Source of the DNA: a virus
Lineage: Duplodnaviria; Caudoviricetes
Direction: 5' to 3' (one strand)
IMG/VR virus record: IMGVR_UViG_3300032295_000548
Coordinates: 75,447-139,446 of that record
DNA: 64,000 nt
Positions 11,501 through 55,023 of this stretch are shown here, piece by piece. The notes beneath the pieces are model-generated. The model made no database searches. It was not told where the DNA came from and worked only from the letters and a program-made list of their open reading frames with translations. The position numbers and the translations under genes are program-made. The stretch's first letter is position 1, and every line of letters begins with the position of its first letter.

Positions 11501-13708
11501 ATGACCAACTGGGTAGTACCTGAAGGAGTTGATGTATCTAATTTTGATTTTAGTTGGCATCCTGATGAACTAGCACCACCGTACATTTATCAGTTCGGTA
11601 CAGTTGCTGACGACAAAGACGGTCCTAAATATGTTCCATCTATCAATAACGGTGAAGTAGTATTCAAGCAAAGAATAAGCAAACCAATACAAGATGACAT
11701 AATCGAAGAAGTTTTCATTGGACAATACTATATTGAGACTACACTAGAAGATTTGGTTAACAAACACCCTGATGAAATTTTCTGGGCATTGAATTCTAGT
11801 ATTGATTACACAAACTTTGACTTCACTTGGAGGCCTGAGATTATTCATATTGCATGGGAATCTTCATACGTTAATGTATTTGGTTCTCCTGACAGTCCAT
11901 TGACACAAACATACTTTGTCAATGCAAAATCATACTTGGCTGGAAATAAAGACTTTAAGTTTGTTGAGAACGTAAAATTAAGTGAAGAATACCTATCAAC
12001 TCTTTTTGTTAAGCCTGACATGTTTTTTGTTGACAGAGGAAACAGTGAATCATCTGCAAGATTTGAAATGCTGAAAACTAAGTTTGGAAACATTCAAAAG
12101 ACACGATATCTAAACAGTTGGGTCGATACCATCAACCGTTGTATCAATCGTAGTACAACTGAATTATGCTGGATACTGAACAGTGAATTAGATTACTCTG
12201 ATTTTGACTTTAACTATTATCCTAACCCTTGGCAGATGAAGATGGTTCATGTGTTTGGTACTCAATGGAGTCATTGGGGAACTACGTTCATGGTTAATCG
12301 TGAAGCATTCTCTACTGACACCAAGTACATTAAGATTATAGAACACTTGAGTAATCTTAACTTTGTCAAGACTCGTACTGCAAAGGCAACAAATGTCTTG
12401 TATGACGTATACTACATAGATCATGGCAACGCTACTAACTTGCCAAACGCAAATGTTGTACCATATGATACTGATTATCTAACTACATTTAAGAACATAC
12501 TATCTAAGTTGCCTGAAAAGAAAGAGCATTACATTTGGATAGCAAGTACAGTGTGTGATTATGACAGTTTTGATTTCACGTACATTTGTGATCCATTCGC
12601 ACGTGAACAATTGCATGTGTTCCCAAGTAGCAGTCAGAAGTTTGGTGATACATTTTTAGTGAATGTGAACAAGTTACGTGAGTTAGTTAGTGATATGGAG
12701 TCATTGAAAGACTATGACAAAATTAACTTCAACCAACATCAGCGTACTAAACGTTTGACCCCTCCTACAATTGTTACAGAGTTTGATTCTCATGTTGCTA
12801 CTGTAATGCAAGATTTTGATTTCCCCTACGCTGTATTTGTCACTGAGGATAACAAAGATATAGTTGCAGTTGAAGAAGAACCAATGAGTCTATGGGATCA
12901 AGAATCTAAAAACATTCTTGTTACCAGTACTGGTGGCACACGTATCATCGTTCCAAAAGAAGCAAAGCAATATGTTGAGACACAGTTGTATGACTATCCG
13001 TACATCAAAACTGCGCCTCGTTTAGCTAAGAGTAATCCATTAGACATTGTTTACTTGAGCAATGGTGAAAGTTGTGCAGATGAAAATTATGAACATCTAT
13101 TGAAAGCGACAAAGGGTCTTCCTAACAAAATCGTTCGTGTAGATGGTGTTAATGGTCGTGTTGAAGCATATCATGCCGCGGCAAAAGCAAGTAACACGCC
13201 TTGGATGTTCACTGTGTTTGCGAAATTGAAAGTCAACACTAAGTTTGACTTTAACTGGCAACCAGATAGACTGCAAATTCCTAAGCACTATATGTTCTTA
13301 GCAAAGAACCCTGTCAATGGATTAATTTATGGTCACCAAGGTATGATTGCGTACAACAAAGAAATGACATTGAATAATCCAGGTTACGGTCTAGACTTTA
13401 CATTAGATAGTCCTCACGAAACTATTGAATTGTTATCAGGTATAGCAACATACAACACAGACGAATGGTCAACATGGCGTACTGCATTCCGTGAAGTTAT
13501 CAAGTTGAAGAAAGAAAATTCTGAAATTAGCTTGAAGCGTTTAGAAGCATGGATGACTAAAGCTGAAGGTGATTTTGCAGAATATTCGATAGACGGTGCT
13601 ATAGATGGTATCGCATACTACAATGAAGTAGAAGGCAAAACAGATAAACTACGCTTGAGTTACGAATGGGCGTGGTTGCGTGAAAGATTTGACAGGAAGC
13701 ACAAGTGA
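5567..13708 (+). CDS. 2713-aa protein with about 29 tandem ~67-aa FDFSWxP repeats flanked by degenerate glycosyltransferase-like domains
   Basis: Repeats counted in the translation; C-terminus DIVYLSNGE...RVDGVNGR..AYHAAA...KNPVNGLIYG...WRTAFRE resembles phage GT-A-like proteins. Confidence 0.85.
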   Translation: MLRDVFYFGNKPNVHPREQHATSLTDARRKASTEHFWIINEFCDYTNFDWDFDFEFLPDADVWAEEHNNVWPSYHQKDSGTWLCPKKLSDVIVYRADVDSLKRKNSINDNWKLLDNIDVTKWDFSWHPDPSDPPYIYKWGSKYAPVELKSCIEYHAPDATQIKYMNTTVELLPNWDCIVEVQKVNYNHWDMSWRPDPLDPPFIYVWGNKYIDGRLRSTLEYHVPGATEKKYMNELVPVLPEWDRWVLIHDIDKTSFDFSWRPDPREPDFIYVFGNEQYEGGVMPTIEYRMPDATERKYLHDMKARLSPHPEKFEHLEKADNIDYSWVPDPTAPPYIYVWGNQWNKPEDKISIQYVVEGATEYKYMEERSKRKPCMDNWEVPDDVDTTGFDFSWEPSPADPAYIYEFGTQWQKTGGPRYVVEGATEIKYVSTMKVTKLADKSKFAILGNLKIANFDYSWHPDSTEEPYIYVFGNNFYPGEIMPTIEYAMSGATKIKYVENAVATLGIDKINWEVPNNVDASSVDFSWKPNPKDPPYIYQYGTQHQKSGGPRYVVPEATEVKYVDVKAKALPQQDKFTVLDGIVVDEFDYSWHPDDTEEAYIYQFGNNQYPAEIMPTVEYAMPGATQIKYVHEVVAKLGVDMTNWTTPDNIDATGFDYSWKPNPKDPAYIYEFGTQWQKTGGPRYLVEGADEVKYVTTQSVKVLPTTDNWTIPTNCDVTGFDFSWHPDATSPPYIYHFATQWALTGGPVYTMDGATEIKYVEHPSAVALPNRDNWEIPKHIDSDAFDFSWHPYVEDQPYVYIFGTQHQKTGGPKYITPGVIPTSPVKYIDTRIIRAIRKPSKKNFAVLNNYKIKDFDWSWHPDETDEPYIYVFGNTQYPAEIMPTIEYVVPGATQIKYVTDVVATLDIDMANWEVSNNTDVSSFDFSWKPNPKDPPFIYQFGTQHQKTGGPRYVVADADEVKYVTTQQAVALPTTENWTVPNYVDTSGFDFSWHPDDTSPPYIYHFATQWALTGGPVYTVQGANETKYLEEPCAVALENKENWEIPKDIDEALFDFSWHPYVEDQPYVYVFGTQHQKTGGPKYVTPGVIPSSPIKYIDTRILKAVKKPSKKNFAILNNYKIKDFDWSWHPDETDEPYIYVFGNNQYSAEIMPTIEYVVPGAKQIKYVSDVIATLDVDMTNWEIPDNIDAEGFDFSWKPNPKDPPFIYQFGTQWQKTGGPRYVVPGADEVKYVTTQQVKSLSSMTNWTIPTHIDTTGFDFSWHPDDTSPPYIYHFATQWALTGGPVYTVEGATETKYLEEPSAIALVNKENWEIPSDIDDSEFDFSWHPYVEDQPYVYVFGTQWQKTGGPKYITPGVIPSSPIKYIDTRILKAKKLANKKNFAILNNYKIKDFDWSWHPDETDEPYIYVFGNNQYSAEIMPTIEYTVPGAKQIKYVHDVVATLDVDMSNWEVPKNVDSTGFDFSWKPNPKDPAYIYEFGTQWQKTGGPRYVVPDAEEVKYVSTQQVKVLANHDNWTIPPNIDVSDFDFSWHPDATSPPYIYHFATQWALSGGPIYKMDKAIATKYMDQPVAKALPNKTNWEIPDDIDAVDFDFSWHPYVEDDPFVYQFGTQWQKTGGPRYVTPGAKRSLPVKYIDTRILKSKKLPNKDKFTVLNNLTIASFDWSWHPDETDGEFVYVFGNTQYPAEVMPTIEYRSSPYAEKIKYINDFKAVLATDLKDWDIPTNIDVSEFDFSWKPNPNDPPFIYQFGTQWQKTGGPRYKVEGATEVKYVEGSKAKAIASKKQWIVPTTIDSANFDYSWHPDETEELYVYQFGTQWQKTGGPRYITSGSTSDTPVKYCDDVKARQLPNKKNFNCLVEHEIKDFDYSWHPDDTDKPYIYVFGNKQYSAEIMPTIEYKVAGAVQVKYVHDVVATLNNNKKNWEIPKDITTESFDFSWLPHPKDPPYVYQFGTQHQKTGGPRYVVPTATDIKYIDGLVAKRKQAMTNWVVPEGVDVSNFDFSWHPDELAPPYIYQFGTVADDKDGPKYVPSINNGEVVFKQRISKPIQDDIIEEVFIGQYYIETTLEDLVNKHPDEIFWALNSSIDYTNFDFTWRPEIIHIAWESSYVNVFGSPDSPLTQTYFVNAKSYLAGNKDFKFVENVKLSEEYLSTLFVKPDMFFVDRGNSESSARFEMLKTKFGNIQKTRYLNSWVDTINRCINRSTTELCWILNSELDYSDFDFNYYPNPWQMKMVHVFGTQWSHWGTTFMVNREAFSTDTKYIKIIEHLSNLNFVKTRTAKATNVLYDVYYIDHGNATNLPNANVVPYDTDYLTTFKNILSKLPEKKEHYIWIASTVCDYDSFDFTYICDPFAREQLHVFPSSSQKFGDTFLVNVNKLRELVSDMESLKDYDKINFNQHQRTKRLTPPTIVTEFDSHVATVMQDFDFPYAVFVTEDNKDIVAVEEEPMSLWDQESKNILVTSTGGTRIIVPKEAKQYVETQLYDYPYIKTAPRLAKSNPLDIVYLSNGESCADENYEHLLKATKGLPNKIVRVDGVNGRVEAYHAAAKASNTPWMFTVFAKLKVNTKFDFNWQPDRLQIPKHYMFLAKNPVNGLIYGHQGMIAYNKEMTLNNPGYGLDFTLDSPHETIELLSGIATYNTDEWSTWRTAFREVIKLKKENSEISLKRLEAWMTKAEGDFAEYSIDGAIDGIAYYNEVEGKTDKLRLSYEWAWLRERFDRKHK
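7337..10600 (+). repeat. Higher-order intragenic repeat with an exact 804-nt (268-aa) period made of four unit types
   Basis: The A-type CATCCAGA(C/T)GA motif recurs at 7337, 8141, 8945, 9749 and 10553. Confidence 0.95.
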
Positions 13709-35112: not shown

Positions 35113-35187
35113 TGTTCTTGTGTTAGACACTAATAGGTAGTGTCGAATATTAAACGAGACCATCTCAATTTTATAAGGAAAAATATC

Positions 35188-36189
35188 ATGGCATCATTAG
35201 CAGAAATTCGTGCTCGTATCGCGGCACAAGAAAACAAGCAACAAAAAGGCGCATCAGGCGCTCAATCTGATAACTCAATCTACCCCCACTGGAATATGGA
35301 CGAAGGCACAACAGCCACGATCCGCTTCTTGCCAGACGCAAATTCTAGTAACACCTTCTTCTGGGTAGAGCGTCAAATCATCAAGCTTCCATTCAATGGC
35401 GTTAAGGGCGATCCTAACGTTAAGCAAACTGTTGTACAAGTTCCATGTATGGAAATGTATGGCGATGCTTGTCCTGTTCTTGCAGAAGTTCGTCCTTGGT
35501 ACAAAGACGAATCATTGAAAGAAATGGCTAACAAGTATTGGAAGAAGCGTAGTTATCTATTTCAAGGTTTTGTTCGTCAAAACCCTATCGGTGACGACAA
35601 GACTCCTGCGAACCCAATTCGCAGATTCATCATCAGCCCACAAATCTTTACTATCATCAAGTCCAGTCTAATGGATCCTGAAATGGAAGAATTGCCAACA
35701 GACTATCTACGTGGTCTTGACTTCAACGTTAAGAAAACAAGCAAAGGTGGTTATGCAGATTACTCTACAAGTAACTGGGCACGTAAAGAATCTCCTCTAA
35801 CAGAAACAGAACAAGCCGCTATTGAAGCACATGGCTTGCACAACTTGGCTGACTTCTTGCCTAAGAAGCCTAGCGAAGCTGAACTGCGTGTTATCAAAGA
35901 AATGTTTGAGGCATCAGTTGACGGTCAACCATTCGACAACGAACGTTGGGGTCAATACTATCGTCCATATGGAATTGAAGCCCCTGCAGGAGCTACGGCA
36001 GGAACAACCGCGTCTGCTGGAACCAGCGCACCCGTAGCAACTCCCGTAGCAGAAACTTCTACAGCTCCTTGGGAAGATGACACTGCATCAGCCTCACAAC
36101 CTGTACAGGTTCCAAAGACTGCGCCAGCATCAAGCGATAAAGCACAAGACATCCTAGCGATGATTCGTGCGAGACAAAACAAGTCTTAA
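35188..36189 (+). CDS. Single-stranded DNA-binding protein (T4 gp32-like)
   Basis: IRFLP, CPV, G.DF..K....GGYADYS.S; SD AAGGA favours ATG35188. Confidence 0.88.
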   Translation: MASLAEIRARIAAQENKQQKGASGAQSDNSIYPHWNMDEGTTATIRFLPDANSSNTFFWVERQIIKLPFNGVKGDPNVKQTVVQVPCMEMYGDACPVLAEVRPWYKDESLKEMANKYWKKRSYLFQGFVRQNPIGDDKTPANPIRRFIISPQIFTIIKSSLMDPEMEELPTDYLRGLDFNVKKTSKGGYADYSTSNWARKESPLTETEQAAIEAHGLHNLADFLPKKPSEAELRVIKEMFEASVDGQPFDNERWGQYYRPYGIEAPAGATAGTTASAGTSAPVATPVAETSTAPWEDDTASASQPVQVPKTAPASSDKAQDILAMIRARQNKS

Positions 36190-36197
36190 TCGGAACG

Positions 36198-36220
36198 AGG
36201 GAGCTTCGGCTCCCTTCCTT
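36198..36220 (+). terminator. UUCG hairpin, probable terminator
   Basis: AGGGAGC-TTCG-GCTCCCT with a weak U tract. Confidence 0.6.
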
Positions 36221-36231
36221 AGGAGAAAACC

Positions 36232-36465
36232 ATGACATTACCCGACGAACGCTACCGTGCCCTTAAGCAAGGTAAAAAACTGTTAGAAGAACTATGCGAT
36301 CCTGGGCGCACTCCTAGGGTACCATCATTAGTGCGAGACCGCGCCCGCGGGGTCTTGCGTCACTATCCTAGCGATTATGAATTAGAGAGAATTGCAGACA
36401 ATTGTCCAGAGTTCCTTGACAAATTTTCATTCGCTGATAGAATGTATACAAACGTACAAAAATAA
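36232..36465 (+). CDS. Small conserved protein (BPSL0761-like)
   Basis: MTLPDERYRA...VR..AR..LRHYP; family recalled from memory. Confidence 0.65.
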   Translation: MTLPDERYRALKQGKKLLEELCDPGRTPRVPSLVRDRARGVLRHYPSDYELERIADNCPEFLDKFSFADRMYTNVQK

Positions 36466-36478
36466 TTAGGAGAATAAA

Positions 36479-36670
36479 ATGACAAAAAAATTAACTAAAT
36501 TAGCAAAAGTAAATGATTCAATTACACTTAACCGTTATGACAATGGTTGGATGGTTGAAGTAGGTGGTCGTGATGAAGAAAGTGATTGGAAGAATGCAAA
36601 GATTCTTTGTAACACTGAAGAAGAATTGATTGCACTAATCAAAGAATACAACACAATGGATGTGGAGTAA
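36479..36670 (+). CDS. Hypothetical protein
   Basis: SD AGGAG; 63 aa. Confidence 0.7.
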   Translation: MTKKLTKLAKVNDSITLNRYDNGWMVEVGGRDEESDWKNAKILCNTEEELIALIKEYNTMDVE

Positions 36671-36672
36671 GC

Positions 36673-37743
36673 ATGGGAAAACCATTCGATATTAGTAAAT
36701 TTCGTAAAGACATTACAAAGTCTATTGAAGGATTATCAATTGGATTCAATGATCCAACTGACTGGATCTCAACTGGTAACTTTGCACTCAATTATCTTAT
36801 TAGTGGTGACTTTAATAAAGGCGTACCTCTTGGTAAAGTTACTGTCTTTGCCGGAGAGTCAGGATCAGGAAAATCATTCATCTGCTCAGGAAACCTAGTT
36901 CGTCACGCACAACAACAAGGCATTTTCGTTGTACTGATTGACAGCGAAAACGCACTTGACGAAGCATGGTTACATGCTTTAGGTGTTTCAACTGACGAAG
37001 ATAAATTGTTAAAGCTTAACATGGCTATGATTGATGACGTTGCTAAAACAATTAGCGAATTCATGAAATCATACAAAGCAATGCCAACAGATGACAAACC
37101 AAAAGTCTTGTTTGTTCTTGACTCGCTTGGTATGTTGTTGACACCAACTGACGTTAATCAATTTGAAGCAGGTGATATGAAGGGTGACATGGGTCGTAAG
37201 CCTAAAGCACTTACATCACTTGTTCGCAATTGTGTTAACATGTTCGGTAGTCACAACGTTGGATTAGTTGCTACTAATCACACTTATGCTTCACAAGATA
37301 TGTTTGACCCGGATGATAAAATCTCAGGTGGTCAAGGTTTCGTTTACGCAAGTTCAATTGTCGTTGCGATGAAGAAACTGAAACTTAAAGAAGATGAAGA
37401 TGGTAACAAAGTATCTGATGTGCGCGGCATTCGCAGTGCATGTAAGATTATGAAAACTCGTTACGCTAAGCCTTTCGAAAGTGTTCAGATTAAGATTCCA
37501 TATGAAACAGGTATGAATCCATACTCAGGCATGCTTGACATGATTGAGAAGGACGAGCTTGTTAAGAAAGAAGGCAATAGTCTTGTTTATACTACACTTG
37601 ACGGAGAAATCATTAAGAAGTTCCGTAAAGCATGGGAAGCAAACACTGATGGTTGCTTGGACAAAGTTATGTCCGAATATGGCAAAAAAATCAAACCAAC
37701 GATAAGTAATTCTGTAGAACCTGAAGGAGAAACTACAGAATGA
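36673..37743 (+). CDS. uvsX: RecA-like recombinase UvsX
   Basis: ISTG..ALN, GESGSGKS, IDSENA, LDSLG, NHTY, SGGQG. Confidence 0.93.
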   Translation: MGKPFDISKFRKDITKSIEGLSIGFNDPTDWISTGNFALNYLISGDFNKGVPLGKVTVFAGESGSGKSFICSGNLVRHAQQQGIFVVLIDSENALDEAWLHALGVSTDEDKLLKLNMAMIDDVAKTISEFMKSYKAMPTDDKPKVLFVLDSLGMLLTPTDVNQFEAGDMKGDMGRKPKALTSLVRNCVNMFGSHNVGLVATNHTYASQDMFDPDDKISGGQGFVYASSIVVAMKKLKLKEDEDGNKVSDVRGIRSACKIMKTRYAKPFESVQIKIPYETGMNPYSGMLDMIEKDELVKKEGNSLVYTTLDGEIIKKFRKAWEANTDGCLDKVMSEYGKKIKPTISNSVEPEGETTE

Positions 37744-45593: not shown

Positions 45594-46269
45594 TCCCAAG
45601 TATGGTTGTGAGTTTTGTGGCCGTACTTTCCTACGTGAGTCCACTGTTCTTAAACATATTTGTGAATACAAACATCGTTGGTTAGAAAAAGATCGTCCAG
45701 GCAATCGTTTAGCATTTCAAGCTTGGTTGCAATTTTACAAAAAGAATAGTGCAAATAAGAAACAACGGACTTATGAAGAATTCATTAAGAGTGCGTACTA
45801 TACAGCCTTTGCTAAGTTTGGTACTTATTGTGTAGATATCAATGCATTGAACGTTAGTAGATTTGCCGATTGGTTAGTAAAAAATCAAATCAAAATCGAC
45901 ACATGGGCAAAAGACGTAAACTATAATAAGTATTTGATTGAATATCTTAGAGTAGAAGATGCACTAGATGCAATTCATCGTAGTGTTGAAACTACCATTG
46001 AATTAGCAGAAGTAGAAACGATTCAGAGTAAAGATTACTTGCGATATGGTAACAGAAATAAAATCTGTTATGCAATCACAACAGGTAAGATTAGTCCATG
46101 GATGTTATTTCAAAGTAAGAGTGGTATTGAATTTATGGATAGTCTTGATCCCTCTCATGTTAAGATGATTATCGATTATATTGATCCTGAAAAGTGGGCA
46201 CTAAAGTTTCACAGAGAACCAGAGAATGTCAGAACAGTTAAAGAGATCCTCACAGCCGGCGGGTACTAA
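45550..46269 (+). CDS. Protein with an N-terminal zinc-finger-like motif
   Basis: YGCEFCGRTF..E....KHIC. Confidence 0.7.
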   Translation: MKISNSTKETEAIADPKYGCEFCGRTFLRESTVLKHICEYKHRWLEKDRPGNRLAFQAWLQFYKKNSANKKQRTYEEFIKSAYYTAFAKFGTYCVDINALNVSRFADWLVKNQIKIDTWAKDVNYNKYLIEYLRVEDALDAIHRSVETTIELAEVETIQSKDYLRYGNRNKICYAITTGKISPWMLFQSKSGIEFMDSLDPSHVKMIIDYIDPEKWALKFHREPENVRTVKEILTAGGY

Positions 46270-46450
46270 AGTGCGTATACCTTGGAAGATGGGTGATACG
46301 GTTACCGATTGGAATGAAACCTGTGCACAGGCAATAGAAATGTTTGGATTGCCGGGAGACAAATTTACTACTAAACTAACAGAGGATCATTTAGATTTCA
46401 TTTTCAAAGATGAAAAAGATGCTATAATGTTTGAACTATGTTGCGGATAA
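46226..46450 (+). CDS. Small paralog-array protein 1
   Basis: FKDEKDAIMFEL. Confidence 0.65.
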   Translation: MSEQLKRSSQPAGTKVRIPWKMGDTVTDWNETCAQAIEMFGLPGDKFTTKLTEDHLDFIFKDEKDAIMFELCCG

Positions 46451-46854
46451 AAGCTAGAATACGTAAATGGAAAGCTGAACGAAAGCTTGAAAAAAGTGGT
46501 TACCACACATGGTCACGTTATCGACACAACAGGGATCCTGACGTAGCAAGGTATGCTGATGATGTAGGTAGTTTCTATGAGAAGTATCCCTACGTATGTT
46601 CCTTTAAGGATTACAGTCATTACGCATTCCAATGTATTTGTGACAATGGACCGTTTGGTGATATCTATGGATACGATGAAATGAGATTGTGGTGTGAAGA
46701 TAAGATTCGATGGAACTACCGCTTAGACATTCATAGAGTCTGGGAAGATGATTACGGTAAAGCAAAATTCGATGATGTTGGTGGTCGAGATATAATCTAC
46801 TTTGCCTTCAAGAACGAAAAAGACTTAACATATTTCTTGTTAAGATGGTCATGA
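46438..46854 (+). CDS. Small paralog-array protein 2
   Basis: WCE...FKNEKDLTYFLLRWS. Confidence 0.7.
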   Translation: MLRIKARIRKWKAERKLEKSGYHTWSRYRHNRDPDVARYADDVGSFYEKYPYVCSFKDYSHYAFQCICDNGPFGDIYGYDEMRLWCEDKIRWNYRLDIHRVWEDDYGKAKFDDVGGRDIIYFAFKNEKDLTYFLLRWS

Positions 46855-47081
46855 AACAGAATGAGTATAGACATTTAGGTCATGAAGTTCTCATTCATAA
46901 AGACAATCATGTACCAGCCGGACAATGGTGCGAAGAACAACTCGGAAAACGTTGGGACGCTATTGGCTATAGGTCTGGACGGTGGTGTATGTTCTGGGCA
47001 GGTAGAAATAATTTTGACAAGTATAGATTCTGTTTTGCCACTGAACATGATATGATGTGGTTTAAGCTGAGGTGGTCATGA
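46851..47081 (+). CDS. Small paralog-array protein 3
   Basis: WCEEQLG...FATEHDMMWFKLRWS; ATGA start. Confidence 0.7.
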   Translation: MKQNEYRHLGHEVLIHKDNHVPAGQWCEEQLGKRWDAIGYRSGRWCMFWAGRNNFDKYRFCFATEHDMMWFKLRWS

Positions 47082-47287
47082 AGATAGTAGTAAATGTTGA
47101 TAACTCAACTGAAGTATGGGCACTGCTTGAAAAACTAAAAGAAAAAAATTTGTACGTGAACAAGGACTTTACTTTTAGGTACATTCCACCTCAGTGTGAT
47201 GAAGGTTGGGAAAAAATCCAACGAAAATGTGTAATATTTGATTTTGTTGACGGAAAGAATGCCACATGGTTCTCTCTGATAATATGA
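47078..47287 (+). CDS. Small paralog-array protein 4
   Basis: FVDGKNATWFSL; ATGA start. Confidence 0.65.
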   Translation: MKIVVNVDNSTEVWALLEKLKEKNLYVNKDFTFRYIPPQCDEGWEKIQRKCVIFDFVDGKNATWFSLII

Positions 47288-47526
47288 AATCATCCCTTTA
47301 TGATTGGGTAAGAGGATGGGAAGATGACCATCCATTTTGGCATACGCATGTTATAACTGCTCAAACTGAATCAGATTTAGATAAACTACACAAAGAAGTA
47401 GTATTATGGTTGTATAAAAATATTAATAATCCAGAAAGACATTGCCGTTGGATTAGACTTGACACGAAAGTTAGTGTAAAATTCAGACATGAGAAAGATT
47501 ACCTTTGGTTTACGTTGAGTTTTTAA
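47284..47526 (+). CDS. Small paralog-array protein 5
   Basis: WLYKNI...FRHEKDYLWFTL; ATGA start. Confidence 0.65.
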   Translation: MKSSLYDWVRGWEDDHPFWHTHVITAQTESDLDKLHKEVVLWLYKNINNPERHCRWIRLDTKVSVKFRHEKDYLWFTLSF

Positions 47527-47527
47527 T

Positions 47528-47734
47528 ATGGTAACAATATATCTACGTGATTTTACAAATGAACATGAAGCTTGGATCGCAAAAAATATAGGTCCAAGAA
47601 TGCATTGGTTGCACAATAGCAGAGGTGGGCAAGGTTGGATAGCAAAGAGAAATGGCCGCGCCTGGACTATAACATTCGAAGATGATAGATACGCAACACT
47701 ATTTGGATTGATGTTTTCAGAGGTAATAGCATGA
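47528..47734 (+). CDS. Small paralog-array protein 6
   Basis: WIAKNIGP...FEDDRYATLFGL. Confidence 0.65.
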   Translation: MVTIYLRDFTNEHEAWIAKNIGPRMHWLHNSRGGQGWIAKRNGRAWTITFEDDRYATLFGLMFSEVIA

Positions 47735-48003
47735 TTAAAGATTTAGAACAAGAACTAGCAGAAAAGTTGAGCAACGAAATGGCAGAAGAATTTGACTGGG
47801 AACTAATATGCGATCTTCTTAAAGAAGTAGGATGGGTCAAAGTAGCTATATCTGAGCCATGGTCAAACATGACTGCATCATTTGCACATGAGATTAAAGA
47901 ATGGTGCAAAGAAAATGTAAAGGGCCATTATAAAGCAAGAGGTCGTGTGTGGATGTTTGAAAAAGCACAAGATGCTGAATGGTTTATGTTGAGGTGGTCA
48001 TGA
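47731..48003 (+). CDS. Small paralog-array protein 7
   Basis: WCKEN...FEKAQDAEWFMLRWS. Confidence 0.7.
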   Translation: MIKDLEQELAEKLSNEMAEEFDWELICDLLKEVGWVKVAISEPWSNMTASFAHEIKEWCKENVKGHYKARGRVWMFEKAQDAEWFMLRWS

Positions 48004-48353
48004 GTTTTAAAGTAAAAAAATTTGATGCACAAGGTGTTACTTATATGGTAGACTGGCCACAAACAACAGAGATGATTAAGCATATCAAGAAAACAGACTT
48101 GTTTGAGATTATGTTTAGAACCGTTCGTAGTGACCACGCCGGACTTGCTATCAAATTAAATAACAATGAGTATGATATTATGTGGGTGAACAGTGATATT
48201 TGGTTCAACAAGAAGAACTACACTGAATATGTACGAGATATGTACGAGATTGTTGGACTAGCGTTTAAAAACGAAATAGAAGCAGACCGTTGCGTTGAGG
48301 TAATGAGCAAAGAACTAATGTGGAGAATACTCGATGGCAATTACACCGTTTGA
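48000..48353 (+). CDS. Small protein, divergent array member 8
   Basis: FKNEIEA; ATGA start. Confidence 0.6.
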   Translation: MSFKVKKFDAQGVTYMVDWPQTTEMIKHIKKTDLFEIMFRTVRSDHAGLAIKLNNNEYDIMWVNSDIWFNKKNYTEYVRDMYEIVGLAFKNEIEADRCVEVMSKELMWRILDGNYTV

Positions 48354-48582
48354 TACAATAGCACCTTATATAGAATTTGTTGAATACAAATGTTTGAACC
48401 CGCGTGATTCTAATAAAGTCATCTTTCGATGCTCCGGCGATCCTACAACTATCATTAAGTGGTGTCGCAGAAACTTTGGTAACAGGGGTGATGGATGGGA
48501 TTTTTCAGGATCGGGTAAAACATTAGATATTACAATATGGTCTACAAAACTGATAACTATGTATGAATTATGGCAGAACTAA
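48334..48582 (+). CDS. Small paralog-array protein 9
   Basis: WCRRNFG.RG.GWDF...TMYELW. Confidence 0.65.
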   Translation: MAITPFDTIAPYIEFVEYKCLNPRDSNKVIFRCSGDPTTIIKWCRRNFGNRGDGWDFSGSGKTLDITIWSTKLITMYELWQN

Positions 48583-49268
48583 CAAACGGACAGGGATATG
48601 ATGTAGCTATCAGTTATATTCCAGAGAAACTAATTGATGCAGTTGTAGCAAAGCTTGACATACTACAACCAGTACGTGCAAGTAGCGCAAATCGCACATA
48701 TGCCGAGCGTGAACAGATTAAAGACTTACCTGATATCAGCGTCTGGTGGAGTCAAATGGTTATGGATTGGCCCGAAGTCATAGAAATTGAATCGATGGTA
48801 AGTGAATTGATTAAGCCACAACTACCACTAGCTGACTGGTATGCTAGTGACATTGTAGTTATTGAAGGGCATAGCAATTGGGTCAACCCTCATGTAGATA
48901 CACCACATCGTTTTAAGAAATACAACTATGACAAACGACTATTGGGTGTGCAAGCAATCGTATCATTATTTGATTTGGATAAGTCTAGGGGTGTTACTGG
49001 TATAGTACCGGGAAGTCAGAAGCAAGATCACAATATCAACTTGTGCTATCAGGGCTTTTATAATTCAATGTTTTTGAAAAAGTGTGTTCAGCCTACTTTA
49101 CCCAAAGGTAGTGTTCTCTACTATAACTGTAGAGTATTGCACTCCAGTATGCCCAATTCACATGACCAATCTCGCCAGGCTCTATTGTTTAATTATTTAG
49201 ATCGTAGTATAATTGATGATATCCGAACTATGGATAACATATGGAAAAGCAATAAAGATGGCGAATGA
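48570..49268 (+). CDS. PhyH-like 2OG-Fe(II) dioxygenase
   Basis: PHVD, G.T..VPGS, GS......VLHSS..N....R. Confidence 0.85.
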   Translation: MAELTNGQGYDVAISYIPEKLIDAVVAKLDILQPVRASSANRTYAEREQIKDLPDISVWWSQMVMDWPEVIEIESMVSELIKPQLPLADWYASDIVVIEGHSNWVNPHVDTPHRFKKYNYDKRLLGVQAIVSLFDLDKSRGVTGIVPGSQKQDHNINLCYQGFYNSMFLKKCVQPTLPKGSVLYYNCRVLHSSMPNSHDQSRQALLFNYLDRSIIDDIRTMDNIWKSNKDGE

Positions 49269-49812
49269 CATTATGATTGACATTGAGAGTTTAGATACAC
49301 GCCCTGATTGTGTTATCTTAACTATCGGTGCAGTACGATTTGATCCTAAAGGCAATGGGGTAGTTGAAAGATTAGAACTACGACCTACAATCGAAGATCA
49401 AACAGAAATTTACAATAGGAGTATCAATGAAGATACATTACGGTGGTGGTCTACACAGAGTCCTGAGGCACTTGAAGAAGCACTGGGAGACCAAGGACGT
49501 CAACCATTTAGTGAGTGCATGGAGACCCTTTATAAGTTTTGTTGGAATCGCCGTGCTGTGTGGAGCAATGGCGCTCCATTTGACCTTGTCGTCATGGAGC
49601 ATGCCTGGAGACAAGTTAGTGACAAGCCAAATCCTATACCCTGGCCATTCTGGTCAATGCGGGATACAAGAACATTGTGGGATATCGCAGGAGTCAAACT
49701 CAAAGACGGTGGACACGTTACTAGTCACAAAGCAGTAGAAGATGCTGAAAGACAGGCTATTGTAGTGCAAGACGCATACCGAAAATTAATTAAGGCTGGA
49801 TTAATCACATGA
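49258..49812 (+). CDS. DEDDh 3'-5' exonuclease (DexA/Rv2179c-like)
   Basis: MIDIES, WSNG..FD, RDTRT, HKAVEDA. Confidence 0.88.
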   Translation: MANDIMIDIESLDTRPDCVILTIGAVRFDPKGNGVVERLELRPTIEDQTEIYNRSINEDTLRWWSTQSPEALEEALGDQGRQPFSECMETLYKFCWNRRAVWSNGAPFDLVVMEHAWRQVSDKPNPIPWPFWSMRDTRTLWDIAGVKLKDGGHVTSHKAVEDAERQAIVVQDAYRKLIKAGLIT

Positions 49813-50270
49813 AAATATATGGACAAGAATTACCCGGTGTCAAAGTTATACAACGCAGACAGTACCCTGACAATAGAGGCAACTTTAGTGAGACATGGAA
49901 GATTACAGAAGATGGTATGAGAGGAACATATCGTCAACTTAATACTGCAAAGTCTGTTCAGTATGTAATCCGAGGCATGCATAGACAAGATCAAACTAAA
50001 CTAGTGATGCCAGCAGTAGGTAAAATATTTGATGTAGCACTAGAACCTGAAACTGGTAAGTGGTTTGCTGTTGAATTAGATGAAACTAATGGTCTACTAA
50101 TTCCACCGCAATATGCACATGGTTATATGGCATTGACTGAAGGTGCAATAATTCAGTACATTGTTGACATGCCATATCACAAAGAACTTGAAGAAAACTT
50201 TAAATGGGATCAGTACAATATAGAATGGCCTACTACTGTAACTCCCATACTATCGGAGAAAGATAAATGA
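49809..50270 (+). CDS. rmlC: dTDP-4-dehydrorhamnose 3,5-epimerase
   Basis: DNRGNFSE, IRGMH.Q.Q.KLV, IPP..AHGY, LSEKD. Confidence 0.9.
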   Translation: MKIYGQELPGVKVIQRRQYPDNRGNFSETWKITEDGMRGTYRQLNTAKSVQYVIRGMHRQDQTKLVMPAVGKIFDVALEPETGKWFAVELDETNGLLIPPQYAHGYMALTEGAIIQYIVDMPYHKELEENFKWDQYNIEWPTTVTPILSEKDK

Positions 50271-50752
50271 AAATAGGATTTAATTGCAGTAGTTTTGACT
50301 TGTTACATGCAGGTCATGTAACTATGCTAAAGATGGAAAAACAATTGTGCGACTACTTAATTGTTGCATTACAAATTGACCCTACCATTGACAGACCCGG
50401 TGTCAAAAACAAACCCATTCAAAGTGCATATGAACGCTATGTTCAATTACAGGCTTGCAAGTATGTAGATGAAATTCTTATCTACGAAACTGAATATGAC
50501 CTGCTTCAATTGCTAATGACACAGAAGATTGACATTCGATTCCTCAGCGATGAATACTTGAATAGAGACTTCACCGGTAAACAATGGTGCATGAACAACG
50601 GGGTCGAGTTACATTATCATAAACGTAATCATGATTATAGTTCAAGTGAACTCAGAGCCAGAACTGCTAGACTTGAACGACTAAAGGGTGTAGAATCAAT
50701 TGATGAGGAACCCCCACAGTATTCACCTGATCTGGTAAAGAAACATTCATGA
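50267..50752 (+). CDS. TagD-like cytidylyltransferase
   Basis: FDLLHAGH, CKYVDE, YSSSELR. Confidence 0.88.
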   Translation: MKIGFNCSSFDLLHAGHVTMLKMEKQLCDYLIVALQIDPTIDRPGVKNKPIQSAYERYVQLQACKYVDEILIYETEYDLLQLLMTQKIDIRFLSDEYLNRDFTGKQWCMNNGVELHYHKRNHDYSSSELRARTARLERLKGVESIDEEPPQYSPDLVKKHS

Positions 50753-51330
50753 AATTCAACAGTGACATTGACATTGACTTTGGAGATAGAGAAAAAGTAT
50801 TGTCTCTGATCGACCATATTCCAGCCGCGATGCGTAAGGTTAGTCCTATGCGTAAACACGCTACTGGTGTCCATGTCACCGAAATACCTTACGATCCTGT
50901 ATATGGTATGTCTAGTTTAGATTATGCAGATGCAGAAAAACGAGGGTATTTAAAACTAGACTTATTGAACGTGCATGTCTATAATATGGTTCGTGATGAA
51001 CAGCATCTCATTGAGTTGATGCGAGAACCTGATTGGTCTAAATTAAAAAATAAAGACTTTGTTGAGAAGTTGATTCATTTGGGCAATCAATATAGCACAC
51101 TAAGATCGATGCCAGAACCAATTGATAGTATCCCTAGACTAGCTATGTTCTTAGCTATTATTAGACCAGGTAAAAAACATTTGATCGGGAAGAGTTGGAA
51201 AGATGTAGCAAAAACAGTGTGGGATAAGGGAAGTGACGGATATACGTTTAAAAAGAGTCATGCAATTGCCTACTCACATTTAGTAGTAGTTCACATGAAT
51301 TTACTAGAAGAAGTTATGGTAATCGTTTAA
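50749..51330 (+). CDS. Miniature DnaE (Pol III alpha) palm/fingers fragment, 193 aa
   Basis: DIDIDF, KHATGV, GYLKLDLL, LAIIRPG and GYTFKKSHAIAY in DnaE order. Confidence 0.85.
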   Translation: MKFNSDIDIDFGDREKVLSLIDHIPAAMRKVSPMRKHATGVHVTEIPYDPVYGMSSLDYADAEKRGYLKLDLLNVHVYNMVRDEQHLIELMREPDWSKLKNKDFVEKLIHLGNQYSTLRSMPEPIDSIPRLAMFLAIIRPGKKHLIGKSWKDVAKTVWDKGSDGYTFKKSHAIAYSHLVVVHMNLLEEVMVIV

Positions 51331-51694
51331 CTAACGTAATACTGCGTCTTTTTGACCTACGTTTATGAAGTTCATTCATACTAGTAATAGGTCCATGTAA
51401 TACAGCTAAGTTCTTATTTGTAAACGTTCTTAGATACGGCTTAAAAATAGCCCAATCTTCTTTGAGAAACAGGTTAATGGGAATCAGTCTATTTGATTCC
51501 CACCACCATATGTCTCCTAATTCTAAAAATCTAGCCCTAGCTTCTGATTCTATGATAGCGCCGTAATCATAGATTGTGGTAACCACATCATCCCTGTTCT
51601 GTATGATACCTACATAATCTTGGTTAGCATATGAACACACCGTTATGAATGGATGATTCTCGCTAAGTTTTCTGAAAAACTCGTTTTGTGCCAT
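51314..51694 (-). CDS. Conserved hypothetical protein
   Basis: 126 aa, WWWESNR.IPINLFL; minus-strand TAAATA boxes at 51717 and 51752. Confidence 0.75.
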   Translation of the reverse strand: MAQNEFFRKLSENHPFITVCSYANQDYVGIIQNRDDVVTTIYDYGAIIESEARARFLELGDIWWWESNRLIPINLFLKEDWAIFKPYLRTFTNKNLAVLHGPITSMNELHKRRSKRRSITLVKRLP

Positions 51695-52613: not shown

Positions 52614-53603
52614 ATGTTTGATATCCTATCTATTGTTCCGGGCAGAAAGAAACTATCCCAAAGTGGGTGGCATAGTTTCAACGCAATCTGCTGTCACAAT
52701 CGTGGGCACAAACCAGACAAGCGTAGTCGAGGTGGCATTCACTTGGATGGTAACAATTGGTCTTATCATTGTTTCAACTGCGGTTTCAAATGTGGTTTTG
52801 TACTAGGCAAAACAATATCTAATTCATCTAGACTGTTATTGAAATGGTGCGGCATTGATGAAACTCAAATACAAAAGTGGAACTTAGAAAGTCTACAAAA
52901 CAAAGATTTACTTGACTTGGTTAGAACCAGAAGTCGAGCAGAAATCAAATTCAGTCATAAGCCATTACCCGAAGAGGCTGAGAGTTTAGATTTAGATAAT
53001 CCTAAACATCATAGATACATTGAATATCTTGAACGAAGGGGCATTCATTTTGATAGTTATCCCTTTAGTGTGACACCAGATAGTACTGGGCGAATAGGTT
53101 CTAGAAAAGAACATCGCATCATCATTCCTTATTTCTACAAAGGAAAAATAGTAGGTCATACTAGTAGGTTCTTAGATAACAAATCTCCTAAGTACTTTAA
53201 TGTGCAACAGCCCGGATATGTATTCAACATTGATGCACAAAAGTTTAATTGGTCAACATGTATTGTTACTGAAGGTATATTCGATGCATTGAGTGTAGAT
53301 GGTGTAGCATTGATGCATGATGATATTAGCAACGAACAAGCACAGTTATTGAATTCATTGAACAGAACTATTATCGTTGTCCCTGACAGAGACAAGACTG
53401 GATTCAAAATGATTGATAGAGCATTAGAATTGGGATACAAAGTCAGTCTACCAGATTGGGGACCTGATGTAAAAGATGCAAATGATGCATTGTTAAAATA
53501 CGGTAAGCTATCTACAGTGTTAAGTATCTTACAGAACGCAACAAATAGTAAAATTAAAATAGAAATGCAGAGGAAGAAAATTGGCAAACAAATCGGAATT
53601 TAA
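52614..53603 (+). CDS. DNA primase (T4 gp61-like; zinc-binding and TOPRIM domains)
   Basis: CC.....YHCFNCG, IIIP, KY, VTEGIFDA, PDRD..G, KDAND. Confidence 0.9.
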   Translation: MFDILSIVPGRKKLSQSGWHSFNAICCHNRGHKPDKRSRGGIHLDGNNWSYHCFNCGFKCGFVLGKTISNSSRLLLKWCGIDETQIQKWNLESLQNKDLLDLVRTRSRAEIKFSHKPLPEEAESLDLDNPKHHRYIEYLERRGIHFDSYPFSVTPDSTGRIGSRKEHRIIIPYFYKGKIVGHTSRFLDNKSPKYFNVQQPGYVFNIDAQKFNWSTCIVTEGIFDALSVDGVALMHDDISNEQAQLLNSLNRTIIVVPDRDKTGFKMIDRALELGYKVSLPDWGPDVKDANDALLKYGKLSTVLSILQNATNSKIKIEMQRKKIGKQIGI

Positions 53604-55023
53604 GTTAGAATACACAACGGAAGTACAGAAGTGGTTTCTGAGGATGATGTTGACAGATGCTCAACTATACACACGTGTAGCTAACATTATCAATTCAGAG
53701 AATTTTGAAAGATCACTTAGACCAGTAGTTGAAATGTTTAAGGAAAGTGCAGAAAAGTTTAGCACTATTCCAGAACCAGAATTCATCGAAGCAAGTACAA
53801 ACATTAAACTTGAACCTATCGAAAATATCACTCCTGGACATACTGAAAAGTTCTTGGAAGAATTTGAGAAGTTCACAAAGAGACAAGAACTAGAACGTGC
53901 TATTCTTAAAGCGGCTGACATGCTTGAGAAGGGTGATTATGGTCCAGTTGAAAAACTAGTTAAAGATGCAGTACAAATCAGTCTACAAAAAGACATGGGT
54001 ACAGATTACTTTGCTGACCCTAAAGCACGTATTAACAAATACTTTAATGCTGGTGGTCAAGTATCTACAGGCTGGCCTCAAATGGACAAACTATTATATG
54101 GTGGTTTCAGTCGAGGTGAATTGAACATTTTTGCAGGTGGCTCAGGATCAGGTAAATCATTGGTTATGATGAACATTGCATTGAACTGGTTGCAACGAGG
54201 ACTCAGTGGTGTTTACATCTCACTAGAACTTTCAGAAGAACTAACATCACTAAGAACTGATGCTATGTTAACCAGCATGAGTACTAGAGACATTCGTAAA
54301 GATATCGATACTACTGAACTCAAAGTTAAGATGGTTGGTAAACAATCAGGTAAGTATCGTGTTAAGGGTATGCCTGCACAAAGTACAGTCAACGACATTC
54401 GTGCATACTTGAAAGAAGTACAGATTCAGACAGGTATCAAAGTTGACTTTGTAATGGTTGACTACTTAGACTTGGTTATGCCGGTGAGTGTTAAAGTTAA
54501 TCCTAACGATCAATTTATTAAAGACAAGTACGTTTCAGAAGAATTGCGTAACTTAGCAAAAGAACTAGGGATTCTATTAGTTACTGCCTCACAGTTGAAT
54601 CGTAGTGCGGTTGAAGAAATTGAATTCGATCACAGTCACATTGCTGGTGGTATCAGTAAGATTAACACAGCAGATAACGTGTTCGGTATCTTTACAAGTC
54701 GTAGTATGCGTGAACGTGGTAAGTATCAGATACAGTGTATGAAATCACGTAGTTCAACGGGCGTGGGTCAGAAGATTGACTTAGAGTATAATATTGAGAC
54801 AATGCGTATTACTGACGAAGATCCTGACGGATACGCAGATCAACAAGCAAAGTATGCTCCTAAATCTAGTCCTAATGATTTAATGAATAAGCTAAAAACA
54901 CAGTCTATAGTGACTGAAAAAGTCGATCCTATAACAGGGGAAATTGAGCCGGAAAATAAGCGTGTTGTAGCGGATGTACAGGGTACTAAACTAAAAGCCC
55001 TGTTGAATTCGCTAAAGAAGTAA
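53581..55023 (+). CDS. Replicative DnaB-like helicase (T4 gp41-like)
   Basis: GGSGSGKS, SLELSE, VDYLDL, TASQLNR, MKSR; TTG start. Confidence 0.93.
   Translation: MANKSEFKLEYTTEVQKWFLRMMLTDAQLYTRVANIINSENFERSLRPVVEMFKESAEKFSTIPEPEFIEASTNIKLEPIENITPGHTEKFLEEFEKFTKRQELERAILKAADMLEKGDYGPVEKLVKDAVQISLQKDMGTDYFADPKARINKYFNAGGQVSTGWPQMDKLLYGGFSRGELNIFAGGSGSGKSLVMMNIALNWLQRGLSGVYISLELSEELTSLRTDAMLTSMSTRDIRKDIDTTELKVKMVGKQSGKYRVKGMPAQSTVNDIRAYLKEVQIQTGIKVDFVMVDYLDLVMPVSVKVNPNDQFIKDKYVSEELRNLAKELGILLVTASQLNRSAVEEIEFDHSHIAGGISKINTADNVFGIFTSRSMRERGKYQIQCMKSRSSTGVGQKIDLEYNIETMRITDEDPDGYADQQAKYAPKSSPNDLMNKLKTQSIVTEKVDPITGEIEPENKRVVADVQGTKLKALLNSLKK

What the first reader, a model, noticed from the sequence alone, without database searches (positions are those of the whole stretch)
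50749..51330. 193-aa miniature DnaE: a stripped, probably split C-family polymerase in a T4-like replisome
Seen: DnaE motifs in the correct order. D6-I-D8 corresponds to the E. coli PDFD aspartates, followed by KHATG, K69-L-D71 (third Asp), IRPG and GYTFKKSHAIAY. The gene is intact and ATGA-coupled to the gene before it. Known: DnaE is >1100 aa, and D403 to D555 spans about 150 residues; here the span is 63, so the thumb is largely deleted. The PHP, HhH, OB and clamp-binding parts are absent, as is the GRGS/ERF nucleotide-binding segment that normally precedes PDxD. T4-like phages normally replicate with a B-family polymerase. Inference: this is half of a two-chain minimal Pol-beta-fold nucleotidyltransferase, probably non-processive, and may do something other than genome replication (priming, tailing, or nucleotide transfer to DNA, RNA or protein).
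Basis: partly seen in the sequence, partly recalled or inferred. Interest (0 to 1): 0.8.

Follow-up and report, generated by a model that had tools for sequence, protein, structure and literature searches.

The report
Half of a split mini-DnaE polymerase
This 193-residue gene is the catalytic-aspartate half of a two-gene, stripped-down bacterial-type DNA polymerase in a giant phage; the family was described from sequence in 2021 but its activity has never been measured.

Summary
Window 50749-51330 (+) is an intact 193-aa ORF, ATGA-overlapped with the gene before it. It carries the DnaE motifs in order: D6/D8, K69-x-D71, RPG and KSH.

Across 79 diverse relatives D6, D8, K69, D71, R139 and P140 are invariant, and dN/dS is about 0.07. 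A high-confidence model (pLDDT 95.6) aligns over its whole length only to C-family polymerases (Z 9.0-9.7), covering E. coli alpha residues 397-784.

- All five long related phage records carry a separate 168-181 aa gene that ends GVGRGSS...EFLK, where this ORF begins.
- The two genes co-occur in the same cultured jumbo phages.
- Three natural 375-aa fusions join them in that order.
- Two complete relatives have no other DnaE domain and encode a family B polymerase.

The window's own record is about 40% complete and ends 13 kb downstream. It holds neither the partner gene nor a PolB, which says nothing about the phage.

This is not new. Iyer et al. 2021 (PMC7824862) described this split minimal Pol III alpha in group 2.2 jumbo phages. 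It is a new environmental member of that kind; assembly, activity and role are all untested.

The parts
50749..51330 (+). C-terminal half of the split minimal Pol III alpha (DnaE-like). It holds the metal-binding Asp triad (D6, D8, D71), a vestigial thumb and the proximal fingers (R139-P140, K168, H171).
   Evidence: phrog_11778 E 1.6e-58. Invariant residues in 79 relatives. Profile hits only DnaE in the PDB. AF2 pLDDT 95.6. VIA Z 9.0-9.7 to PolC and DnaE, equal to E. coli 397-784. dN/dS about 0.07.
51314..51694 (-). Conserved convergent 126-aa gene of unknown function (phrog_11637). It overlaps the 3' end of the C-half by 17 bases. Strictly co-inherited neighbour and a possible third component.
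   Evidence: phrog_11637 E 3.5e-31. Found in 79 of 83 related loci, overlapping the 3' end in 70 of them. Found in 89 cultured phage records with nearly the same taxon counts as the C-half, and next to it where both positions are listed (121Q, Munch, RCIP0023, XbC2). No Pfam or Atlas hit.
49213..49812 (+). Rv2179c-like DEDD 3'-5' exonuclease. In about 30 relatives it lies directly upstream of the C-half and overlaps its start by 4 bases; here it is separated by two inserted genes.
   Evidence: PF16473 E 1.3e-32. phrog_255 'exonuclease'. Adjacency counts.
49809..50270 (+). dTDP-4-dehydrorhamnose 3,5-epimerase-like gene. A lineage-specific insertion between the exonuclease and the C-half, probably unrelated to the polymerase.
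   Evidence: PF00908 E 5e-31. Present in only 18 of 83 related loci.
50267..50752 (+). Cytidylyltransferase-like gene, ATGA-coupled to the C-half. Also a lineage-specific insertion.
   Evidence: PF01467 E 6.6e-14. Present in 26 of 83 related loci. The overlap is read directly.
52614..53603 (+). DNA primase (context: replication module).
   Evidence: phrog_47 E 1.2e-44. Same order as in Atu_ph07 and Turkey5.
53581..55023 (+). DnaB-like replicative helicase (context: replication module).
   Evidence: phrog_19 E 2.8e-69.
35140..37743 (+). gp32-like SSB (35140-36189) and UvsX-like recombinase (36673-37743). Context: T4-like replication and recombination module.
   Evidence: phrog_1192 E 1.8e-66 and phrog_97 E 1.1e-70.

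Best explanation
The ORF encodes the C-terminal chain of a two-chain, minimal C-family (DnaE-like) DNA polymerase typical of Rak2/PA5oct/Atu_ph07-like ('group 2.2') jumbo phages. This chain supplies the three metal-binding aspartates (D6, D8, D71), K69, a stump of the thumb and the proximal fingers (RPG and KSH motifs). A separate protein of about 170 aa (phrog_11127), encoded tens of kilobases away, supplies the first part of the palm with the GRGS nucleotide-binding loop. It ends exactly where this chain begins.

The two chains are inferred to assemble non-covalently. There is no room for an intein, because only five residues precede the first catalytic Asp. Together they would form a Pol-beta-like nucleotidyltransferase core without PHP, distal fingers, clamp-binding motif, HhH or OB domains.

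The phage's main replicase is most likely its T4-like family B polymerase. The mini-DnaE is inferred to be a low-processivity, template-directed accessory polymerase used in repair, recombination-dependent synthesis or one strand of the fork.

Shown: identity, fold, conservation, selection, co-occurrence of the two genes, natural fusions, and absence of the other DnaE domains in complete relatives. Inferred: heterodimer formation, polymerase activity and biological role.
For: Family and fold: phrog_11778 E 1.6e-58. A profile of 79 relatives hits only Pol III alpha chains in the PDB, collinearly. The AF2 model has pLDDT 95.6. The 13 best Foldseek hits are DnaE-type Pol III alpha chains. In VIA-align the top 15 entries are all DnaE or PolC, Z 6.2-9.7, about 188 of 193 residues aligned, and the next fold scores Z 3.6.

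Active site kept: D6, D8, K69, D71, R139 and P140 are invariant in 79 sequences at 28-56% identity. Selection: median dN/dS is 0.068 over 41 unsaturated pairs, and every homologous ORF recovered from the 80 related loci is open, at 191-213 aa apart from one cut by a contig end.

Partner gene: the N-half is present once in 5 of 5 long relatives and ends GVGRGSS...EFLK. It matches PF07733 positions 21-94. Its taxon counts among cultured phages are nearly identical to those of the C-half. Three independent fused forms of 375-376 aa join N and C in DnaE order.

Rest of the genome: the two complete relatives (352 and 367 kb) match the DnaE profile only at these two genes and have no PHP domain. They carry a PolB of about 910 aa. 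The gene sits in a T4-like replication module with SSB, UvsX, helicase, primase and DnaB. The N-half lies four genes from the clamp loader in both G001 and Atu_ph07.

The same reading is published: Iyer et al. 2021, PMC7824862.
Against: No biochemical or genetic data exist for any member. The papers I read gave none, and the other titles returned by the searches pointed to none.

The partner gene and PolB are not in the window's own 139-kb record. The record is only about 40% complete and ends 13 kb past this gene, whereas the halves lie 31-182 kb apart in relatives.

Physical association of the two chains was not tested. The fold of a natural fusion was of low confidence in the palm (pLDDT 62).

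Pfam's DnaE models do not reach threshold on this chain alone.

By my hand alignment of the short C-terminal motifs, the residue matching E. coli R390 (ERF) is Glu in the phage N-halves (sequences). Nucleotide binding may therefore differ from DnaE.

The enzyme lacks most of the thumb and the distal fingers, so template-directed synthesis is not assured.
Confidence: 0.85

Rival explanations
1. The two-chain core is a Pol-beta-fold nucleotidyltransferase that no longer copies DNA. It might add nucleotides without a template (tailing), make a nucleotide signal, or nucleotidylate a protein or nucleic-acid end, for example in conflict with the host.
For: The thumb is cut from about 150 to about 60 residues between the Asps, and the distal fingers, HhH, OB and clamp-binding parts are missing. 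A complete PolB replicase is present in relatives, so a second replicase is not obviously needed. The position matching E. coli R390 is Glu in the N-halves (alignment by eye).
Against: The DnaE-specific finger motifs RPG and KSH are invariant or nearly so. The structural match runs through the fingers to E. coli residue 784. The gene sits among primase, DnaB, SSB and UvsX, and the partner sits near the clamp loader, not among defence or counter-defence genes.
Confidence: 0.12
2. The mini-DnaE, not PolB, is the main replicative polymerase or one arm of an asymmetric fork. It gains processivity through other phage proteins such as the conserved convergent small protein, the DEDD exonuclease or the clamp loader.
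For: The small gene phrog_11637 is co-inherited with the C-half. The C-half start is coupled to a 3'-5' exonuclease in about 30 relatives. Both halves lie near clamp-loader genes in some genomes. Iyer et al. suggest cooperation with PolB in synthesis of one strand.
Against: The C-terminal 6-10 residues are not conserved, so there is no conserved C-terminal tail that could serve as a clamp-binding peptide. There are no dsDNA-binding HhH or OB parts anywhere in complete relatives. PolB is full length with its own exonuclease region.
Confidence: 0.08
3. The ORF is a decaying remnant of a full-length dnaE, that is, a pseudogene fragment.
For: It is one sixth the length of DnaE and lacks a Pfam hit.
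Against: It is intact, with a near-constant length of 191-213 aa in the related loci. dN/dS is about 0.07. The catalytic triad is invariant over 79 sequences down to 28% identity. There are at least 7,988 clusters at 90% identity in metagenomes. The model is compact and confidently folded.
Confidence: 0.01
4. The two halves are joined after translation by a split intein, as in the cyanobacterial split DnaE (that case is from my own knowledge).
For: The two genes lie far apart, as in Synechocystis dnaE-n and dnaE-c.
Against: The N-half stops right after the EFLK motif and the C-half has only five residues before the first catalytic Asp. Split-intein halves, as I recall them, are about 100+ and 35 residues, so there is no room. 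The natural fusions show a plain 11-residue linker.
Confidence: 0.01

Closest known systems
Split minimal DNA polymerase III alpha of group 2.2 jumbo phages (Iyer et al. 2021, Viruses 13:63, PMC7824862). Examples: Atu_ph07 gp74 + gp316, PA5oct, RaK2, 121Q. PHROGs phrog_11778 + phrog_11127.
   Same: Same family (33-51% identity to the cultured members listed; full-length phrog_11778). Same split point. Same local order: C-half, convergent small ORF, structural gene, primase, DnaB. Same T4-like replication module. PolB is present in complete relatives.
   Different: This is an uncultivated phage. Its nearest cultured homologue is only 51% identical. Two sugar-nucleotide genes are inserted just upstream. 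The record is incomplete, so the partner gene is not seen.
Bacterial Pol III alpha / DnaE (E. coli 2HNH and 5FKU; T. aquaticus 2HPI and 3E0D; M. tuberculosis 5LEW and 7PU7).
   Same: Palm with the Asp triad, the Lys two residues before the third Asp, and the RPG and KSH finger motifs. The model superposes on E. coli 397-784 and Taq 459-841 with Z 8.8-9.4.
   Different: 386 residues are compacted to 193. The thumb is almost gone and the distal fingers are missing. There is no PHP, beta-clamp motif, HhH, OB or tau-binding part. The first palm segment with GRGS is on another polypeptide. Sequence identity is 14-22%.
PolC of Firmicutes (G. kaustophilus 3F2B).
   Same: Best structural score: Z 9.7, 188 residues aligned, PolC 968-1299. 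Same C-family core.
   Different: PolC is about 1,400 aa with an inserted proofreading exonuclease and OB and PHP domains. None of these is present here.
Unsplit PHP-less 559-aa DnaE-like protein of a related phage (L091:1501-3180, record G005).
   Same: Same motifs in the same order. hhalign probability 91.5% to the C-half family. It also lacks PHP.
   Different: It is one chain and much closer to cellular DnaE (PF07733 E 1e-42 plus the finger domain PF17657). It is encoded beside PolB and occurs in addition to the split pair in that genome. It was not found in the window's record.

Membership tests
C-family DNA polymerase catalytic core (Pol III alpha / DnaE / PolC) | Three catalytic aspartates in the palm (E. 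coli D401, D403, D555), with the conserved Lys two residues before the third | tested here: met
   D6, D8, K69 and D71 are invariant in 79 relatives. D71 aligns with the K553-F-D555 segment of E. coli alpha.
C-family DNA polymerase catalytic core (Pol III alpha / DnaE / PolC) | Palm and fingers fold superposable on solved C-family polymerases | tested here: met
   pLDDT 95.6. The top 15 entries are all DnaE or PolC, Z 6.2-9.7 over residues 1-193, and the next fold scores Z 3.6.
C-family DNA polymerase catalytic core (Pol III alpha / DnaE / PolC) | GS (GRGS) nucleotide-binding loop of the Pol-beta-like fold on the same polypeptide | tested here: not met
   The ORF starts five residues before the first Asp. 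In relatives the loop is on a separate gene.
C-family DNA polymerase catalytic core (Pol III alpha / DnaE / PolC) | Pfam PF07733 (DNA_pol3_alpha) or PF17657 (finger) above the gathering score | tested here: not met
   No Pfam hit for this ORF even at E up to 10. PF07733 is met by the relatives' N-half (35 bits) and by the fused form (59.6 bits).
C-family DNA polymerase catalytic core (Pol III alpha / DnaE / PolC) | PHP domain, clamp-binding motif, HhH and OB domains of a replicative alpha subunit | tested here: not met
   They are absent from the ORF by length. In two complete relatives the 1,190-position DnaE profile matches only positions about 366-429 and 576-818, and PF02811 finds nothing.
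Split minimal Pol III alpha of group 2.2 jumbo phages (phrog_11778 + phrog_11127) | Full-length match to the C-half family | tested here: met
   phrog_11778 E 1.6e-58, residues 3-190 on profile positions 5-195 of 197. 96 jumbo-phage records by tblastn.
Split minimal Pol III alpha of group 2.2 jumbo phages (phrog_11778 + phrog_11127) | Separate N-half gene in the same genome | tested here: inconclusive
   Not found in the 139-kb record, which is 40% complete and ends 13 kb downstream. Present in 5 of 5 long relatives, 43 kb from the C-half in G001.
Split minimal Pol III alpha of group 2.2 jumbo phages (phrog_11778 + phrog_11127) | Accompanied by a family B DNA polymerase and a T4-like replication module | tested here: inconclusive
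   PolB is not in the own record but is present in both complete relatives. SSB, UvsX, helicase, primase and DnaB are present in the window.
Split minimal Pol III alpha of group 2.2 jumbo phages (phrog_11778 + phrog_11127) | The two chains assemble into an active polymerase | not testable with these tools
The fold of the natural fusion was of low confidence. I found no biochemical data for any member in the papers read.

The most novel reading that the evidence does not exclude
The mini-DnaE is not a two-part but a three- or four-part machine. The strictly co-inherited convergent 126-aa protein (phrog_11637), and in many lineages the translationally coupled Rv2179c-like 3'-5' exonuclease, would be its missing accessory subunits for DNA or clamp tethering and for proofreading. 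That would make a self-contained minimal C-family polymerase holoenzyme, or a nucleotidyltransferase with a non-replicative product.
Probability: 0.15. Interest if true: 0.7.

Novelty: new member of a known kind. Interest (0 to 1): 0.35.

Why it matters
This is the smallest known natural version of the bacterial replicative polymerase core, split across two genes. It is very common in environmental jumbo phages, with at least 7,988 clusters at 90% identity in metagenomes. Iyer et al. proposed it as a model of the ancestral C-family polymerase.

No member has been purified or knocked out. It is therefore unknown whether a DnaE palm with a stump of thumb and half the fingers can copy DNA, or why a phage with a complete PolB replisome keeps it under strong selection.

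This window adds no new principle. The session adds three points that I did not find in the passages of Iyer et al. 2021 that I read:
- natural N-C fusions exist;
- a conserved convergent partner gene accompanies the C-half;
- the C-half is often coupled to a DEDD exonuclease.

Tried and rejected

- Folding a natural fusion (P0172) as a stand-in: mean pLDDT 62, with the palm junction (residues 177-270) below 50. The model is unusable. The alignment behind it (A8) was shallow and slightly mis-registered at the junction.

- Alignments A4 and A7 stacked the N-halves on the C-halves and were discarded.

- Search for the N-half and PolB in the window's own record: no match with the Atu_ph07 gp316 protein, phrog_11127, PF00136 or Atu_ph07 gp277. 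This is uninformative because the record is a 40% fragment.

- Regex search for G[RK]G[SA] in the record's ORFs: only unrelated hits.

- Other contigs carrying the identical protein: all are 22.9 kb or shorter and none reaches the expected partner position.

- Word-based search for longer (fused) relatives of the C-half: none. The exhaustive representative search did find one.

- phmmer of the single protein against the PDB: nothing. The family profile was needed.

- ESM Atlas for the convergent small protein: no usable hit.

- Considered and rejected: pseudogene, trans-splicing intein, and an 'ordinary replicase with the domains on other genes' (see the rival explanations).

Full report
**1. 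Observation**

Window 50749-51330 (+) is an uninterrupted 193-codon ORF. Its ATG overlaps the TGA of the preceding ORF (50267-50752) as ATGA. Its 3' end overlaps a convergent ORF (51314-51694, minus strand) by 17 bases.

So the description is accurate.

**2. Is it really DnaE-like?**

The single sequence finds nothing in Pfam or in the PDB. It does match PHROG phrog_11778 ('DNA polymerase', 197 positions) end to end at E 1.6e-58. It also matches the full-length DnaE PHROG phrog_405 weakly at profile positions 536-623 and 772-809.

An exhaustive search of 1.84 billion representatives gave 384 clusters at 50% identity. Nearly all that look complete are 185-215 aa. From 79 of them I built alignment A1, in which D6, D8, K69, D71, R139 and P140 are invariant. 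D10, H37, G40, K168 and H171 are nearly so.

The A1 profile hits only Pol III alpha chains in the PDB (nine distinct sequences; E. coli 5fku_A at E 1.6e-5). The segments are collinear:
- query 4-20 with E. coli 399-417 (PDFDVDF; weak);
- query 54-140 with E. coli 538-641 (K553-F-D555 through RPG);
- query 151-180 with E. coli 739-769 (GYGFNKSH).

With A1, AlphaFold2 gives a model of mean pLDDT 95.6. The 13 best Foldseek hits are DnaE-type Pol III alpha chains. In VIA-align the top 15 entries are all DnaE or PolC: Z 9.7 to PolC 968-1299, 9.4 to Taq 459-841, 8.8 to E. coli 399-784, with about 188 of 193 residues aligned. The next fold scores Z 3.6.

So the protein is a compacted version of the segment that runs from the first catalytic Asp to the middle of the fingers. 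386 E. coli residues become 193. By the published domain limits (Lamers et al. 2006, cited; the limits are from my own knowledge), the shortening falls mainly on the thumb and on a finger insertion.

**3. Is it alive?**

Each of 80 related IMG/VR loci (70-85% identity) carries an open homologue of 191-213 aa, apart from one cut by a contig end. Synonymous sites against the window are saturated, while pN is only 0.08-0.2. Among 41 unsaturated pairs the median dN/dS is 0.068.

The identical protein occurs on contigs from at least seven other samples. A pseudogene is excluded.

**4. The other half**

The Atu_ph07 paper calls gp316 a 'Pol III alpha subunit'. That gene is 177 aa and ends ...GVGRGSCVSS...FSEFLE. 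It defines phrog_11127 and matches DnaE profile positions 361-435.

The window's own record (139,446 bp, CheckV 40% complete; the window is its last 64 kb) has no match to phrog_11127, to gp316, or to PolB. This is uninformative, because the record ends 13 kb past the gene.

All five long related records carry exactly one N-half gene of 168-181 aa ending GVGRGSSVSS...DEFLK. In the complete 352-kb relative G001 it lies 43 kb from the C-half. The spacing is 31-44 kb in PA5oct, 121Q and Turkey5, and 182 kb in Atu_ph07.

Among cultured phages the two genes have almost the same taxon counts:

| Genus | C-half | N-half |
|---|---|---|
| Escherichia | 34 | 34 |
| Pseudomonas | 11 | 11 |
| Klebsiella | 11 | 10 |
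| Salmonella | 8 | 8 |
| Erwinia | 8 | 8 |
| Yersinia | 4 | 4 |
| Xanthomonas | 4 | 4 |
| Agrobacterium | 2 | 2 |

Three independent metagenomic proteins of 375-376 aa (P0172, P0272, P0273) fuse an N-half to a C-half through an 11-residue linker. The junction lies exactly between EFIK and DFDID. This is Rosetta-stone evidence that the two make one enzyme.

There is no room for a split intein. The N-half stops at the EFLK motif, and the C-half has five residues before its first Asp.

**5. Are the missing DnaE domains elsewhere?**

They are not. In the two complete relatives the 1,190-position DnaE profile matches only the N-half (positions about 366-429) and the C-half (positions 576-636 and 772-818). 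The PHP model finds nothing. Both relatives encode a one-piece PolB of about 910 aa.

**6. Context**

The window carries a T4-like replication and recombination module:
- large terminase;
- gp32-like SSB;
- UvsX;
- a DEAD-type helicase;
- the C-half;
- primase;
- DnaB.

The order C-half, convergent small ORF, structural gene, primase, DnaB is the same in Atu_ph07 and Turkey5.

Two neighbours deserve mention. First, the convergent 126-aa gene (phrog_11637, no known function) is found in 79 of 83 related loci. In 70 of them it overlaps the 3' end of the C-half by 4-42 bases. It occurs in 89 cultured phage records with nearly the same taxon counts. It lies next to the C-half where both positions are listed: 121Q, Munch, RCIP0023 and XbC2.

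Second, in about 30 relatives the gene directly upstream, overlapping by 4 bases, is an Rv2179c-like DEDD 3'-5' exonuclease. In the window's lineage two sugar-nucleotide genes sit between that exonuclease and the C-half: an epimerase-like gene (PF00908) and a cytidylyltransferase-like gene (PF01467).

The N-half lies four genes from the clamp-loader large subunit in both G001 and Atu_ph07.

**7. Mechanism**

Shown: a conserved, selected, well-folded half of a C-family palm and fingers with an intact metal-binding triad. It has an obligate-looking partner gene that carries the GS loop, and there are no further DnaE domains in complete relatives.

Inferred: the two chains assemble non-covalently into a Pol-beta-like core that polymerises nucleotides with low intrinsic processivity. 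The core would serve beside the PolB replicase in repair, recombination-primed synthesis or one strand of the fork. The retained RPG and KSH finger motifs and the replisome context favour template-directed synthesis.

The near-absence of a thumb, the missing distal fingers, and a Glu at the position I align by eye with E. coli R390 keep a non-canonical nucleotidyltransferase activity open.

I put identity at about 0.95, two-chain assembly at about 0.85, and templated DNA polymerase activity at about 0.55-0.6.

**8. Comparison with what is known**

[quoted passage not shown] They say it is accompanied by a family B polymerase and that no other Pol III domains are present.

GenBank annotators also label many members 'DNA polymerase III alpha'. 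The phenomenon is therefore known. This ORF is a new, uncultivated member, 51% identical to its nearest cultured homologue in PA5oct.

I found no experimental work on any member. The papers I read gave none, and the other titles returned by the searches pointed to none.

**9. Verdict**

Interest is moderate (0.35): a well-documented member of an intriguing, abundant and biochemically untouched family.

Noticed in passing
L091:1501-3180 (+), in related record G005 (IMGVR_UViG_3300027804_000045): A relative that has the split N- and C-halves also encodes an unsplit 559-aa PHP-less DnaE-like protein about 1.7 kb from its PolB. It hits PF07733 at E 1e-42 and the finger domain PF17657 at E 1e-16. 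The two complete relatives and the window's record lack it.
   Followed up: partly
window 51314-51694 (-): A 126-aa gene of unknown function (phrog_11637) converges on the mini-DnaE C-half and overlaps it. It is co-inherited with the C-half in 79 of 83 related loci and 89 cultured jumbo-phage records. No Pfam or Atlas match.
   Followed up: partly
window 46226-48582 (+): A run of about nine small ORFs (68-138 aa), several ending in ...F.L(R/S)WS, packed with overlapping stop and start codons. They look like a tandem array of divergent paralogues. Earlier scan notes e1-5824204 and e1-5824213 describe the same array.
   Followed up: no
window 49213-50752 (+): In this lineage two sugar-nucleotide genes are inserted between the Rv2179c-like exonuclease and the mini-DnaE: a dTDP-4-dehydrorhamnose epimerase-like gene and a cytidylyltransferase-like gene. 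A PhyH-like dioxygenase lies just upstream at 48570-49268. This may be a small DNA or surface-sugar modification cassette.
   Followed up: partly
genome record G000:C1:28638-48122 (+), outside the window: A single ORF of 6,494 codons lies in the upstream part of the same phage record. It is flanked by other very long ORFs of 1,121, 1,258 and 1,629 aa.
   Followed up: no
window 5567-13708 (+): A 2,713-aa ORF within the window. I did not examine it.
   Followed up: no
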